Origin: Eledone cirrhosa
Lineage: Eukaryota
Assembly (NCBI GenBank): GCA_964016885.1
Contig: OZ024760.1
Coordinates: forward strand, 15,624,001-15,688,000
Direction of reading: 5' to 3'
DNA length: 64,000 nucleotides
In this document: positions 12,319 to 27,589 of the stretch, one piece after another
How the letters are laid out: each line of letters opens with the position of its first letter
Position numbering within the stretch: the first letter of the stretch is position 1
Program-made: the position numbers and the translations under genes
The notes under the pieces: model-generated
Database searches by the model: none
What the model saw: the letters and a program-made list of their open reading frames with translations, nothing else
What the model was told of the DNA's origin: nothing

Positions 12319-12924
12319 CTATGTGTTTAATATATCTTGTCGCGTTTTTCTGTCAATAACTTTCTCGAAATACTTTGGTTTAATAAATCCATGTTCATCT
12401 CCTTCAGTGAGGATTACATTGTTCTCTGACTCGTAAAATGTCAGTCCTTCTTTTAATGCCAGATTTAGATTTAAATAAATCATTATGTCAGAAGATAATG
12501 GCATCCCGCTAATTACTCCAGCATCACCTGGTTCCCCTCTGGCGAAATGAATGTGCATTCTATTCCGTTTGCTTAGGCCTTCTCTTCTGATGGCATTCCA
12601 CGCACTGTAATAGGTACCATGAATTACATTAGGATAATTCGCTCCGTTTAATATCGGCTTCAAAGATAAATCTTTTATGTGGATTGAATGTCCTTGATTC
12701 GCTCGAATCATTAATTCGTTTCCCTGCTCTTTTAGCGAATATCTTTTCTTTGTGTCGTTTTTCACGATACGCCTGATGTCGTTTTGTGTTAAATTATTAA
12801 ATCCATGTATTTTGAGCAAATCGTTTACTTTAACGAATCCATTACTGTCTATTTGGATGCCTATGTGCTCTGCTTGGTGTCGTAATACAGTTACTAATTT
12901 TTTCGATATTCTAATATCACTCAT
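12319..12924 (-). CDS. TRPT1: tRNA 2'-phosphotransferase (Tpt1/KptA family) paralogue A, 201 aa, uninterrupted CDS
   Basis: Motifs SKxLxxVLRH, KKRY, IRANQGHS, IHGT, GLSKRNRMHIHF, VISGM and SENNVILT. Probable start is MSDIRISK at 12924; the track's upstream extension begins at a non-ATG codon. Confidence 0.92.
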   Translation of the reverse strand: MSDIRISKKLVTVLRHQAEHIGIQIDSNGFVKVNDLLKIHGFNNLTQNDIRRIVKNDTKKRYSLKEQGNELMIRANQGHSIHIKDLSLKPILNGANYPNVIHGTYYSAWNAIRREGLSKRNRMHIHFARGEPGDAGVISGMPLSSDIMIYLNLNLALKEGLTFYESENNVILTEGDEHGFIKPKYFEKVIDRKTRQDILNT

Positions 12925-13125
12925 TTTCTTTCTTGCTCTATATTTCGTAATTGACGACGAAGAGATGGAAATGTAAAGAAAGTTTAAAATATCGAGATAT
13001 ACAAGAGACAGATGAATGGAAGTAAAAGAATTTTGAAAACTAGATAATAATTCAGCTACATCGATTTTATATACAAATAAAATGAAAGTGAAAACGAATT
13101 TTCGTGGAAAATATATATTATTTCC

Positions 13126-13824
13126 GGGCACTACCATACTATTAGCTGTCAAAAGTGAAAATTTCGTCAACCTTCTCAATCGTAAACATCGTTTATTTCC
13201 GTATTTTCACGCGTTATTTTAATAAAGCATATCTATGTAAGTGGAGTTACTTAAATGAAAATTAGAAAACAAGTCATGGTTATCAAATAAATTGGATTTA
13301 ATCATTTATATTTTCATAGTGTTGAACAAATGAGCAACGATGGTTGCTGGACACTGTACGGCTTAATTCGAGATGTTTGTTTACAAACACACCGAGCATT
13401 ATAATAAATGTTCGGTGAATCCATACGTACATATATATGTGTGTGCATGTATGTATATATATATATACTACTGTACGTCTGTATACATATATTTATGTAC
13501 GTATACATACTTATATTTAAGTCATTTTCACCAACAGTGGAATTACTTCTGACAGCTAATACCATGAACTTAAATGAATTTTCACCAACAGTGGGAGTTA
13601 CTTCTGACGGTTAATACCATGAACTATATTTTCATAGTCATGGTTATCAATGTAGAAAACAATTTGGCCCTTTTAAGGGCCACCTATATTTTCATTTAAG
13701 TAACTCCACTTACATCGATATGCTTTATTAAAATAACGCGTGGTAATACGAAAATAAACGATGTTTACGATTGAGAAGTTTGACGAAACTTTCACTTCTG
13801 ACAGCTAATAGCATGTTAGTGCCC
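13126..13824. mobile_element. Foldback/MITE-like element with ~135-bp imperfect terminal inverted repeats
   Basis: 13126-13262 (GGGCACTACCATACTATTAGCTGTC...) is the approximate reverse complement of 13688-13824 (...GACAGCTAATAGCATGTTAGTGCCC). No clear TSD. Confidence 0.7.
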
Positions 13825-14347
13825 CAAATTGTTGTTAATACGGTTAAAATTATATTTATTTACATAAAGTATATTAGTAATGGTAATTTTCAACTGATTT
13901 TTCAATTAATATTAGTTATGGTTCATTAGATATCGTGAAATGAATGTCTTTTCTTTTTACTTTCAATTATGTATGTTTTAAATATTTATTTACTGAATTA
14001 TATAGGAAAGGCACCACCACAAAAGTCCAAAGTTCAAAACATTCTGTATTAAAATGAAAAGGGTAAAAAAGTTATGACACCCTGAATCAATCACACACTA
14101 CAAAAAACACATTTTTTATTTTTTTAAATATAAATCTTTTTTATGTTAAATATGAAAAAATATAAATTTGTTTTTATCGATGTTTTTTTTTAAGAATCTG
14201 GCCTTTTAAATCAGCGAAAATTCAATATTTTTTAGTTAACTGGTGTGGGAAACCCTCGGAGTTCTCTCCCCTAGTTAACTAAAACTAATAATTCTCGGCA
14301 TTTTGATAGCTATTAAACACAGAAAAAAGGCGTTCCTTCCTTTTAGC

Positions 14348-14915
14348 GGTCGCAATAATGAAAGTAAATTTATTTTCATTTTCGAACGTCATGTTTACAT
14401 TGTGTGTGTGTGTTTAAAGGAAACATACTGGCGACGAAGCTTCTTCTTTGCACGGCTCCATGTGTTCACCATGAGCTGTGTGTGCACATCAGGGTCCGTT
14501 GGATCTACAAAGTTCCGTTCGTGCACCACAACATCCTGAACGTAAATCCCACCTTCAATTTCCTCAATTTCCGAATAGGAAGCCCAACCATCGGAGATGA
14601 TGCGGCTGCCTGGCAAAATCCCTGCTGAATGATGGGGACGAGAGTGTCACGGCTTCGATTTGGGAGACTTCTACAAGGCAGCAAAGTCCAGAATGGCGGA
14701 CTCACCATTCTGCAAGCCTCATTACAAGATTACTTCGGTATTGAGTACTCTTCTCTCAACCGTCAACTACACACACACACACATATATATAATCAGTTAA
14801 AACGACAGAGGCTCTGATTTTGTCTTTAATCTCAGTAACTAATTTAGATCTAAACACACACAATGTAAACACGACGTTCGAAAATGAAAATAAATTTACT
14901 TTCATTATTGCGACC
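14348..14915 (-). mobile_element. Merlin/IS1595-like DDE transposase fragment enclosed by ~65-bp inverted repeats
   Basis: PGSRIISDGWASY...VVHERNFVDPTDPDVHTQLMVNTWSRAKKKLRRQY resembles the IS1595/Merlin catalytic region. Inverted repeats at 14348-14416 and 14851-14915. Confidence 0.7.
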
Positions 14916-15290
14916 ATAAAAGTAAGGAAAGCCTACAAAAAATATATTTCACCTCAAAAAGTGGAATTCTAAAAATTTACCAAGAAACCTTAATTAAAAA
15001 AATTCATATAATAAACATAATTTTCAAAAGAGATTAATCAGGTAAAACACAAATGCAATAAAAAAAAAATAACCACCAGTCGACTTTGTTTCCTCATAAT
15101 TATTCTTAGTAATGCGTCATTTGCATATCTTACAGATACCTAGTCGGAGGTGTAGATTACGATCGATTAAAAATAAAGGTTCTCGAGGTTATCTTTGCCT
15201 TTCATCCTTACGGGGTCGATAAAATAAAGTACCAATAATGTAATAGTTTAATTACTGGCCTTGTGCCAAAAGTAGAAACAGCTATTTTCA

Positions 15291-25649: not shown

Positions 25650-26470
25650 TGCCCTTGAGGTGTGGTGTTAGAAGTGGTGATGGGTTCAAGTTTGACATTG
25701 TTATATATTAGGCTTAAAGTTTTGGAAGGAGTGCTGGCACAACGCAAACACTTCCGATTTTTTATTAAGGAGGTTAAGGTTGAAGAAGATTATAGTATGG
25801 GTCTCTAGTAGACAGAGGTTACAGAATTTATTAGGTGGTCTGTACGATGCCGTGTTACCTATCACTTCTCATTGAAGCGTATATGATCTATTTCTAGTTT
25901 TGAGATAGTGAAGTGGAGTTGGCTAGACTGTGTTTTTTGAAAGAATGGAGATGTGAATTGTATCTGGTTTTGAAGCAGTTCGAAGTAGAGCCTATATAGG
26001 TTTCAGAAGAGTTGCTAGTTCTGACCGTGCATGAGTAGATGATGTCCTTGATTAAGCAGTTTTTATCTAAAGGGCAGGTTCTATTAGATCTACAGTTACA
26101 ATTATTTTGGATGTTAACCTGTCGGTTATTATGTTGTGTAGAAGTCTGGTTGCTAGGTATTGCATTATAGCTACGGGGGTTGTCGCTCCCAATATTATTG
26201 ATTTCATTAGTGTTATTACTATTATTACTATTGATATCAGGGTTTGCAGATATTACGTTGTTTTGAAAGTTTACCCCCTGCTGTGGTTTAGTTTGTTGAA
26301 AGTATTAATCTTTCTTTTATTGCTACTAGCTATGTGGTATGCTATGTTAGGCGTGGTAGAGTAGATTTTAATGGTGTTTTTATTTATAAGACTATGGTAC
26401 TTGTGGCCAGATGGGAAGTTTTTATCCAGGAGTGAGAAGAAAACCTTAGGTAGGTTGGTAGAGACGTTTA
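25650..26470 (-). mobile_element. Second, degenerate Penelope-like fragment (linker plus GIY-YIG), not in the ORF track
   Basis: Manual minus-strand translation: FFSLLDKNFPSGHKYHSLINKNTIKIYSTTPN...CNCRSNRTCPLDKNCLIKDIIYSCTV...TYIGSTSNCFKTRYNSHLHSF...CNLCLLE...LLNKKSE. Confidence 0.75.
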
Positions 26471-26618
26471 GATTGAAAGGGGGGGGGGGTGTTGTTGAAA
26501 AATGTATTAGTTCTTCTATTTTTGTTTTTTATATCTGTTGAGGTGTTTCCGTTTATGGTATTTTGGTGTCTTCTCTGGTGTGAGTTACGTTTGTTGCTAC
26601 CCTTCGTATTAGTGTGTG

Positions 26619-26651
<33 letters not shown>

Positions 26652-26776
26652 CATATTGTGTGATGGGATCAAAACTTTTTTTGGGGGGAAAACTCAAATA
26701 ATTCAGAGTAGATGAAAAGTTTCACTGTACTGCGACAGTGGCATTAATTCTTTTACCAAACCCAAAAGAGACGTGT

Positions 26777-27589
26777 CTATGTGTTTAATATATCTTGTCG
26801 CGTTTTTCTGTCAATAACTTTCTCGAAATACTTTGGTTTAATGAATCCATGTTCATCTCCTTCAGTGAGGATTACATTGTTCTCTGACTCGTAAAATGTC
26901 AGTCCTTCTTTTAATGCCAGATTTAGATTTAAATGAATCATAACCTGACACGATGATCTCATGCCGCTAATTACACCAGTTTCACCTGGTTCTCCTCTGG
27001 CGAAATGAATGTGCATTCTATTCATCTTGCGTAGACCTTCTTTCCTAATAGACTCCCATGATTTGTAATAGGTACCATGAATTACATTAGGATAATCCTC
27101 TCCACATAATATAGGCTTCAAAGCAAGATTTTCTACCTTGATTGAATGTCCTTGATTCGCTCGAATCATTAATTCACCGTCTTCCTCTTTCATGAAGAAT
27201 CTCTTTTTGTCGTTGTTATCCACCATACGTTTGACACCGCCAACTGTTAAATGTCGAAATTCTTTCCTTTTAAGCAAGTCCTTTAGTTTAACAAAGCCAT
27301 TTGCATCCATGTAGATGTTCAATTTCTTTGCCTTGTGTCGTAATATAGAAACTAACATTTTGGACATCTTAACGTCATTACCAGAAACTTTTCTCGACTT
27401 GGAATCAACTTCAACTTCTCTCAATTTCCCTGTACAGTCAACTTCTTTCCCCTTCAGATCACCACTTCTTTCTGTCGACTCTGAGTTACACGTACTCTGG
27501 GTTAAATGTTTTGACAGAATGCAGGTAAACGGAAAGAAAATATATTTAAAACACAAGAAAAAATAATTGAGTATCATCGTAATATCCAT
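26777..27589 (-). CDS. TRPT1: tRNA 2'-phosphotransferase paralogue C, all catalytic motifs intact (N-terminus uncertain)
   Basis: SKMLVSILRH, NDKKRF, IRANQGHS, IHGT, GLRKMNRMHIHF, VISGMR and SENNVILT. The first ~31 codons could be intronic (pyrimidine tract plus CAG at 27499-27497). Confidence 0.92.
   Translation of the reverse strand: MDITMILNYFFLCFKYIFFPFTCILSKHLTQSTCNSESTERSGDLKGKEVDCTGKLREVEVDSKSRKVSGNDVKMSKMLVSILRHKAKKLNIYMDANGFVKLKDLLKRKEFRHLTVGGVKRMVDNNDKKRFFMKEEDGELMIRANQGHSIKVENLALKPILCGEDYPNVIHGTYYKSWESIRKEGLRKMNRMHIHFARGEPGETGVISGMRSSCQVMIHLNLNLALKEGLTFYESENNVILTEGDEHGFIKPKYFEKVIDRKTRQDILNT

What the first reader, a model, noticed from the sequence alone, without database searches (positions are those of the whole stretch)
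12319..27589. Diversified tandem cluster of three intronless Tpt1/TRPT1 genes next to RNase Z
Seen: three same-strand paralogues in 15 kb - one canonical (C), one with a motif change (A) and one RNA-lobe trimer (B). Known: TRPT1 is usually single-copy in animals, where tRNA splicing uses RtcB and leaves no 2'-phosphate, so its role is unclear; Tpt1 enzymes can also ADP-ribosylate 5'-phosphorylated nucleic acid ends. Inference: a lineage-specific RNA-end repair or modification module (enzyme, variant enzyme and non-catalytic binder), possibly derived from a retrocopy followed by tandem duplication.
Basis: partly seen in the sequence, partly recalled or inferred. Interest (0 to 1): 0.8.

Follow-up and report, generated by a model that had tools for sequence, protein, structure and literature searches.

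The report
Octopus TRPT1 retrogenes with split roles
This octopus-type genome carries three intact, intronless extra copies of an RNA-end enzyme gene that is of unknown use in animals: one normal, one missing a residue that grips its cofactor, and one made only of three RNA-gripping parts; similar odd versions occur in other octopods, so they likely are kept tools for marking or binding RNA ends.

Summary
Three minus-strand, intronless PF01885 (Tpt1/TRPT1) ORFs lie head-to-head with RNase Z (ELAC2). The genome also holds a spliced parent (6+ exons), an intact intronless copy D and a frameshifted copy E. The intronless copies form one octopod clade (99/99).

A keeps the Arg-His-Arg-Arg catalytic tetrad. 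It swaps the NAD-gripping donor-loop Arg (human R170) for Pro, as do its orthologues in three Octopus species (118 of 122 homologues keep Arg). In Runella Tpt1, losing this Arg gave a weak, NAD-sensitive enzyme that accumulates ADP-ribosylated RNA.

B is three RNA lobes with no NAD lobe. The phosphate-pocket residues are kept, and a similar protein exists in Argonauta. dN/dS is 0.24-0.49 throughout.

One run, inferred to be RNA, covers all three genes and shows A-to-I editing in the B-A spacer. C is a younger DNA duplicate related to D and has likely gene-converted A's 3' end.

Best reading: functional retrogenes, with predicted active (C), stalling (A) and binding-only (B) roles. No activity was tested, and the RNase Z link is probably positional. 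No description was found in the searched literature.

The parts
12319..12924 (-). Copy A: intronless Tpt1/TRPT1 paralogue, 201 aa, catalytic tetrad intact, donor loop SGMP (ORF open upstream to 13137, extension probably non-coding)
   Evidence: AlphaFold pLDDT 90.6, TM 0.92 to mouse TRPT1 7yw2
12499..12501 (-). CCA (Pro) codon in place of the SG-x-R arginine (human R170)
   Evidence: Pro in 4 of 122 homologues, all in A's clade
12255..12476 (-). Tract nearly identical to C (last 52 codons plus 3' flank), likely gene conversion; ends 23 nt from the Pro codon
   Evidence: 1 substitution and one 2-nt indel against 26711-26934; dS 0.03 against 0.57 upstream
13126..13824 (-). Inverted repeat pair 13126-13262 / 13688-13824 (high-copy element) forming a 137-bp RNA stem upstream of A; A-to-I edited (22 sites seen)
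14328..14934 (-). Inverted repeat pair 14328-14409 / 14854-14934 in the B-A spacer; 5 edited sites seen
15291..16124 (-). Copy B: 277 aa, three tandem Tpt1 RNA lobes (about 15879-16118, 15591-15836, 15336-15575), no NAD lobe, short acidic tail
26777..27589 (-). Copy C: canonical Tpt1/TRPT1 (tetrad, HGT, SGMR, H-H-V all present); start codon uncertain (27589/27577 or 27367)
26711..26934 (-). C side of the A/C near-identical tract
27505..27900 (-). Upstream region of C homologous (70%) to the upstream region of copy D on contig C3: C and D are a DNA-level duplication
28432..28781 (+). First exon of the neighbouring gene, inferred to be ELAC2/RNase Z, head-to-head with C (about 0.85 kb apart)
   Evidence: downstream exons identified

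Best explanation
The window holds three intact, intronless TRPT1 paralogues (canonical C, donor-loop variant A, RNA-lobe trimer B) that likely descend from one retrocopy made in an octopod ancestor and are likely kept by selection as specialised RNA-end proteins: C is predicted to be an active 2'-phosphotransferase / end-ADP-ribosylase, A is predicted to be a weak, NAD-level-dependent enzyme that would stall and leave ADP-ribose on the RNA, and B is predicted to bind phosphorylated RNA ends multivalently without catalysis. Shown here: ORFs, domain anatomy, residue states, spliced parent, orthologues of A, a B-like protein in Argonauta, dN/dS below 1, RNA coverage with editing in one sample. 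Inferred: retro-origin, gene conversion from C into A, all biochemical roles, and any cooperation among the three. A's role is extrapolated from an Ala mutant of a bacterial enzyme; B's from the known independence of the RNA lobe.
For: Anatomy: A and C keep R40, H41, R86, R150, H130/T132 and H154/V198 (human numbering; K84). A alone has Pro at R170; 118 of 122 homologues have Arg and the other 4 have Pro. Those 4 are O. sinensis XP_029649910, O. vulgaris CAI9739735, O. bimaculoides XP_052832118 and an unnamed Logan protein. They group with A (95/95 full length; 85/80 with the motif and converted tract removed). PMC6333775 section 14: Runella R137A (= Cth R139 = human R170 by PMC10415124 section 25) accumulates the 2'-phospho-ADP-ribosylated intermediate at 1 mM NAD, loses all activity at 0.1 mM and barely supports yeast. 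B: each of three lobes folds as a Tpt1 RNA lobe. The pocket residues S32, K/R33, R40, K84 and R86 are kept in 3 of 3 lobes (14 of 15 identical to D at 42-53% lobe identity; binomial p about 0.0003-0.002) and in 2 of 3 lobes of Argonauta GAB1608604, while H41 is lost in lobe 3 of both. The lobe binds a 2'-phosphate ligand independently of the NAD lobe (PMC8464070 passages). Selection: dN/dS 0.41-0.49 for A's unconverted part, 0.35 for C-D, 0.24-0.49 among B lobes, all bootstrap intervals below 1; a neutrally mutating ORF of B's length survives 0.2 substitutions per site in 0.5% of 2000 simulations. Expression: run X1 covers unique A and B sequence with no differences in the coding parts; 27 of 27 X1-only differences are T>C inside repeat arms (p 4e-20), which marks minus-strand RNA; C's 5' part and 3' flank are covered.
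Against: No enzyme or binding assay exists. Arg-to-Pro in a mobile loop could abolish activity rather than slow it, and the Ala result comes from a bacterial enzyme whose loop differs (PMC10415124 section 25 says the SGR loop is eukaryote-specific); no human R170 mutant was found in that paper's main text (supplements not read). The RNA evidence is one sample from one study, as contigs, kind not on record. The contig holding A's coding start runs unspliced into the edited hairpin, so at least some A-containing RNA has a leader of 900 nt or more with a 137-bp stem and 21 upstream ATGs between 12925 and 13824 (counted). It may be B's read-through 3' UTR, not a translated A message. Orthology of B and the Argonauta protein is only partly supported: lobe 3 groups with B2/B3 at 92/83 (not starred), lobe 2 groups with A-type, lobe 1 is decayed. 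No B-type protein from Octopus was found. dS among B lobes is 1.2-2.1, near saturation, and pairwise dN/dS mixes both branches; values of 0.35-0.5 also fit relaxed selection. C has lost the start codon used by D. Mouse Tpt1 knockout has no phenotype (PMC6333775 introduction passage).
Confidence: 0.55

Rival explanations
1. A is a catalytically dead pseudoenzyme and B a decoy; both would act as competitive inhibitors or shields that occupy phosphorylated RNA ends and keep active TRPT1 (parent, C, D) or nucleases off them.
For: Pro in the donor loop should stiffen a loop whose flexibility is reported as needed (Ser/Gly-to-Trp mutants almost inactive, PMC10415124 section 25). Residues after the Pro vary freely among orthologues (LSS, SSS, PYS, RNS). 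B has no NAD lobe.
Against: A and its four orthologues keep every other NAD-site residue tested: H130, T132 (T in A and in the four orthologue sequences), R150, H154, S167, G168, V198. A pure decoy would not need them.
Confidence: 0.18
2. B's lobes have been repurposed as generic La-like winged-helix nucleic-acid or protein binders unrelated to phosphate ends, and A and C are simple dosage or tissue-specific backups; the cluster is not a module.
For: The lobe resembles the La motif (PMC6333775 passage; LARP1/La hits), and tandem winged-helix proteins are B's next fold matches. Proteins with two or more RNA lobes and no detected NAD lobe recur: 10 of the best 150 hits, some probably fragments.
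Against: The Tpt1-specific phosphate pocket, absent from La, is kept in all three B lobes. A's Pro is fixed across Octopus.
Confidence: 0.15
3. A and B are retrocopies drifting under relaxed selection toward pseudogenes, transcribed only as read-through.
For: dN/dS up to 0.49; long structured leader before A; decayed lobe 1 in Argonauta; copy E is frameshifted; RNA also covers repeats in the C-B spacer.
Against: A orthologues are intact at 199-201 aa in four other records; bootstrap intervals exclude 1; ORF survival under neutrality is 2% or less at 0.2 substitutions per site.
Confidence: 0.08
4. The cluster is functionally coupled to RNase Z in tRNA 3'-end processing through a shared bidirectional promoter.
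For: C and the inferred ELAC2 first exon are head-to-head about 0.85 kb apart, and both are covered in X1.
Against: C carries its own upstream region shared with D, which lies on another contig. RNase Z leaves a 3'-OH on tRNA and no 2'-phosphate (recalled). Synteny in other species could not be tested.
Confidence: 0.04

Closest known systems
Eukaryotic TRPT1/Tpt1 (human 7yw3, mouse 7yw2; PF01885)
   Same: C and A have the two-lobe fold, the Arg-His-Arg-Arg tetrad, HGT and H-H-V motifs.
   Different: Intronless, multi-copy, coexisting with a spliced parent. A lacks the SG-x-R arginine kept in 118 of 122 homologues. B lacks the whole NAD lobe.
Runella Tpt1 R137A mutant (PMC6333775 section 14)
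   Same: Same arginine removed; tetrad intact.
   Different: An engineered Ala change in a bacterial enzyme; A is a natural Pro change conserved across Octopus species in the eukaryote-type loop.
Argonauta hians GAB1608604.1 (P0122)
   Same: 277 aa, three-lobe layout, no NAD lobe, 35% identity to B, shared SKLLAA start of lobe 3, pocket residues kept in lobes 2-3.
   Different: Lobe 1 decayed; lobe 2 groups with A-type lobes; gene structure and synteny unknown; automatically named, with no functional study found.
Other multi-lobe Tpt1-like proteins (P0121/P0266, P0129, Owenia P0130, Notodromas P0126)
   Same: Tandem RNA lobes, with or without a full enzyme.
   Different: Lower identity to B; probably independent expansions (not tested by tree); most come from unnamed records.
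La motif and tandem winged-helix proteins (LARP1, La, STK19, SelB C-terminus)
   Same: Winged-helix fold; La binds RNA 3' ends.
   Different: La lacks the Arg/His/Arg pocket; fold matches are weak (E 0.003 or worse).

Membership tests
Tpt1/KptA (PF01885) | Profile match above the curated cut-off | tested here: met
   A 195, B 199, C 202 bits against cut-off 26
Tpt1/KptA enzyme | RNA lobe plus NAD lobe: copies A and C | tested here: met
   Profile positions 2/3-177 covered; A model TM 0.92 to 7yw2
Tpt1/KptA enzyme | RNA lobe plus NAD lobe: copy B | tested here: not met
   Three N-lobe stretches only; B is a derivative, not an enzyme member
Tpt1/KptA enzyme | Arg-His-Arg-Arg tetrad (human R40, H41, R86, R150): A and C | tested here: met
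   equivalences from PMC10415124 section 27
Eukaryotic TRPT1 | SG-x-R donor loop: copy C | tested here: met
   SGMR
Eukaryotic TRPT1 | SG-x-R donor loop: copy A | tested here: not met
   SGMP
Tpt1/KptA enzyme | NAD-dependent 2'-phosphotransferase or 5'-end ADP-ribosylation activity | not testable with these tools
   Needs assay or yeast complementation
Functional retrogene | Intron-bearing parent elsewhere, with those introns absent from the copy | tested here: met
   Parent with 5 GT-AG introns inside the domain on C2; A, C, D contiguous
Functional retrogene | Copies descend from that parent lineage | tested here: inconclusive
   Intronless clade 99/99; clade plus parent neither found nor rejected (p-AU 0.46)
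Functional retrogene | Poly(A) remnant and target-site duplication | not tested
   Synonymous sites against the parent are saturated, so these marks are not expected to survive
Functional retrogene | Open ORF under purifying selection | tested here: met
   dN/dS 0.24-0.49, intervals below 1; near-saturated dS for B
Functional retrogene | Transcribed | tested here: met
   One run, inferred RNA from a spliced contig and T>C editing
Functional retrogene | Translated | not testable with these tools
   No ribosome or proteome data

The most novel reading that the evidence does not exclude
Octopods have split TRPT1 into an eraser (C/D), a stalling writer that leaves ADP-ribose on RNA phosphates when NAD is high (A), and a trivalent reader of phosphorylated RNA ends (B): an animal RNA-end signalling set. 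It may serve octopod-specific RNA ends such as the Incirrata-only 28S H88 break (PMC13321053), whose known range overlaps that of this clade; that last link is speculation (about 0.07 on its own).
Probability: 0.25. Interest if true: 0.87.

Novelty: new variant of a known kind. Interest (0 to 1): 0.62.

Why it matters
What TRPT1 does in animals is open: mice lack a knockout phenotype (PMC6333775 passage). A lineage that kept an active copy, a conserved step-arrest-like variant and an RNA-lobe-only trimer supplies natural separation-of-function alleles. B would be a ready affinity probe for the endogenous phosphorylated RNA ends that animal TRPT1 sees. A would be the first natural Tpt1 predicted to leave its ADP-ribosylated intermediate. 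Both can be tested with existing yeast and in vitro assays.

Tried and rejected
- First reading that A lost a catalytic-tetrad arginine: rejected after numbering against human TRPT1; the lost residue is R170, not R150.
- Word-based homologue searches with B found nothing or only Argonauta P0122 as a multi-lobe hit, so Octopus B orthologues remain unknown. The atlas search gave only generic PF01885 clusters under 0.9.
- Genome search with PF13691 missed ELAC2, and its first exon had no PDB match.
- 'No RNA holder listed'; X1 was inferred to be RNA afterwards. X1 and the DNA-like runs X2/X3 are different samples, so single differences could be alleles; the argument rests on the one-type, in-stem pattern.
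- A single C-B-A transcript could not be shown: 2 of 2 spacer pieces checked are high-copy repeats, although they match this locus at 100% against 97% or less for the best other scored copies, and contigs cannot show one transcript.
- Editing removes only 2 of 46 ATGs between B's stop and A's start, so uORF removal by editing was rejected.
- Capture of the ELAC2 promoter was weakened.
- Assembly collapse as the cause of the A/C tract was considered: flanks differ and k-mer contigs join the tract to both flanks but cannot phase it; not excluded.
- Three Branchiostoma lanceolatum entries are isoforms of one gene, not an array.
- The K84 column was mis-indexed by one; one search gives the right one. 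The motif count used a faulty pattern and was replaced.
- No complex prediction was run, since no binding is claimed.
- Earlier scan notes: 4 answered look-ups, nothing shown.
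Full report
OBSERVATION. The window is G000:C21:15624001-15688000 of a 3.0-Gb assembly; its best named protein matches are octopods. Three minus-strand ORFs, A 12319-13137, B 15291-16124 and C 26777-27589, all match PF01885. C aligns with human TRPT1 over the whole domain (E 9e-48). B matches only the N-terminal RNA lobe, three times. RNase Z lies on the + strand: an exon at 47174-47413 hits human ELAC2 at E 3.5e-16, and the inferred first exon starts about 0.85 kb from C, head-to-head. 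An ATG14-like first exon lies at about 3.2-3.9 kb (Pfam E 0.05, weak).

THE FAMILY IN THIS GENOME. The genome-wide PF01885 search gave 9 matches from 12 scored candidates: A, C, three lobes of B, an intact intronless copy D on C3, an intronless copy E on C14 broken by one frameshift in a T run, and one exon on C2. That exon belongs to a spliced gene with six AG/GT-bounded exons that translate to a canonical TRPT1. Synonymous sites between it and A, C, D are saturated. A, C, D and seven octopod or unnamed proteins form one clade (99/99 among 21 rows; 97/90 with nine such proteins among 34 rows). Joining the parent to that clade is not rejected (p-AU 0.46) but is not recovered either. An old retrocopy is the likeliest origin. 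No squid or cuttlefish name appears among the best 120 of 972 hits, a weak hint that the clade is octopod-limited.

HISTORY OF THE CLUSTER. It is not a fresh triplication. With the motif and 3' tract removed, A groups with Octopus SGMP proteins (85/80), and a clade of A+C+D is rejected (p-AU 0.013). C and D are sisters (99/92), 89% identical in coding DNA, and share about 400 bp upstream at 70%, so they arose by DNA duplication (dS 0.25). A-type proteins lie on 33-51 Mb contigs in Octopus and C21 is 35 Mb; C/D-type proteins lie on 192-216 Mb contigs and C3 is 379 Mb. This suggests positional orthology but does not show it. A's last 52 codons and 3' flank are nearly identical to C (dS 0.03 against 0.57 upstream; 12255-12476 against 26711-26934) and are as close to D as C is, so conversion likely ran from C into A. 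The tract stops 23 nt short of the Pro codon.

COPY A. The conserved protein starts at 12924 (201 aa). It folds as TRPT1 (pLDDT 90.6; TM 0.92 to mouse 7yw2) and keeps the tetrad and NAD-site residues. The change is SGMR to SGMP at human R170, a two-base codon difference from C. Of 122 homologues, 118 have Arg and 4 have Pro, all in A's clade: O. sinensis, O. vulgaris, O. bimaculoides and one unnamed record. PMC10415124 (abstract, sections 22, 25-28 and passages read; supplements not read) places R170 on the NAD diphosphate in a mobile donor loop and equates it with Cth R139. PMC6333775 (sections 9 and 14 and passages read) equates Cth R139 with Runella R137 and reports that R137A accumulates ADP-ribosylated RNA at 1 mM NAD, is inactive at 0.1 mM and barely supports yeast. 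PMC6097658 (passages) defines the tetrad, which A keeps. Hence the prediction of a weak, NAD-sensitive, stalling enzyme. A dead enzyme is the main rival.

COPY B. AlphaFold on a two-sequence alignment gives three repeats of the lobe topology (pLDDT 69, pTM 0.34, so lobe packing is undefined). The best fold matches are TRPT1/Tpt1, then tandem winged-helix proteins. The HMMER search of 1.84 billion representatives returned Argonauta hians GAB1608604 as second-best hit: 277 aa, no NAD lobe, 35% identical. Its lobe 3 groups with B2/B3 (92/83), lobe 2 with A-type lobes (80/85), and lobe 1 is decayed, so shared ancestry is likely for part of the protein only. The five residues that bind nucleic-acid phosphates in TRPT1 (S32, K33, R40, K84, R86) are kept in all three B lobes (one Lys-to-Arg) and in two Argonauta lobes; H41 is replaced in lobe 3 of both. 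PMC8464070 (passages) shows that NADP binds the N-lobe independently of the C-lobe, weakly (about 1 mM), which makes triplication a plausible avidity gain (inference). Multi-lobe forms recur: of the best 150 hits, 10 have two or more RNA lobes and no detected NAD lobe and 6 have extra RNA lobes before one NAD lobe; some are probably fragments.

SELECTION. NG86 with 2000 codon bootstraps: A5'-C5' 0.49 (0.30-0.78), A5'-D5' 0.41 (0.25-0.66), C-D 0.35 (0.21-0.58), B lobes against D 0.29 (0.13-0.46), B1-B2 0.27, B1-B3 0.24, B2-B3 0.49 (0.11-0.96). Caveats: dS of 1-2 for B, and pairwise values mix both branches. No DNA from other species was available.

EXPRESSION. Four runs from one study hold the A-B stretch, none on record as RNA; three were laid. 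X1 (88 million letters of contigs) behaves as RNA: a 2608-nt contig leaves the genome at a GTAAGT donor, and it shows 28 T>C places against 1 in X2 and X3. All 27 X1-only changes lie in the arms of two inverted repeats, which hold 104 of 488 covered Ts (p 4e-20); 25 of 27 pair A-U in the folded minus-strand RNA. This is the pattern of ADAR editing on a minus-strand transcript. The arms checked are a high-copy element (516 candidates), so editing here is ordinary for a cephalopod (recalled), but it proves transcription of the spacer. X1 contigs cover B's whole ORF (15251-16361), A-specific sequence including the SGMP codons (12447-12635) and parts of C. The contig 12688-13289 joins A's start to an edited arm without a splice, so that RNA has a long, structured, ATG-rich leader; whether A is translated is open.

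LITERATURE. 'TRPT1' + 'octopus': 0 papers. 'Tpt1' + 'cephalopod' as whole words: 2 papers with unrelated titles (listing only). Four broader searches (listings only, top 20 each) showed no title on Tpt1 paralogues or RNA-lobe repeats. The library lacks most subscription journals. PMC13321053 (abstract, section 5, passages) reports a post-transcriptional 28S break limited to Incirrata; the passages read name no enzyme or end chemistry, and any link to these genes is speculation.

VERDICT. A real, previously unremarked diversification of a usually single-copy gene, with two structurally new derivatives that are conserved beyond this genome. That the genes are functional is likely (about 0.85). 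The specific active / stalling / binder mechanism is about 0.55. A functional tie to RNase Z is unlikely. New variant of a known kind; interest 0.62.

Noticed in passing
G000:C14:40371707-40372217 (L004): Divergent intronless Tpt1 copy E with catalytic motifs present and one frameshift inside a T run; may be an assembly error or a young pseudogene.
   Followed up: partly
G000:C3:57850107-57850625 (L002): Copy D has a basic N-terminus and a short peptide tandem repeat before the Tpt1 domain; Octopus and Argonauta relatives also have a basic N-terminal stretch.
   Followed up: partly
P0121/P0266, P0129 (unnamed metagenome records), P0130 (Owenia), P0126 (Notodromas): Tpt1 RNA-lobe repeats recur in other organisms, with up to 9 detected lobes and no NAD lobe; no description of this architecture was found in the searches run.
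   Followed up: partly
window 57198-58568 (-): Single-ORF 456-aa radical SAM / HemN_C gene (RSAD1/HemW-like, name recalled), tail-to-tail with RNase Z.
   Followed up: no
window 3232-3933 (-): ATG14-like first coding exon with microsatellite-derived Thr/Ala runs; Pfam support weak (E 0.05).
   Followed up: partly
window 30813-32249 (+): 478-aa reverse-transcriptase-like ORF (LINE type, by recalled motifs) inside the first intron of the RNase Z gene.
   Followed up: no
window 10558-11163 (-) and 24434-24778 (+): Remnants resembling Penelope-type GIY-YIG elements (by recalled motifs) flank or interrupt the cluster.
   Followed up: no
window 52650-53672 (+): A 6-codon tandem repeat (SPPIER) precedes a late RNase Z exon in frame; probably an intronic minisatellite.
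   Followed up: no
window 28495 and 28621 (+): The inferred ELAC2 first exon has two in-frame ATGs, as expected for mitochondrial and nuclear isoforms (recalled for human ELAC2).
   Followed up: no
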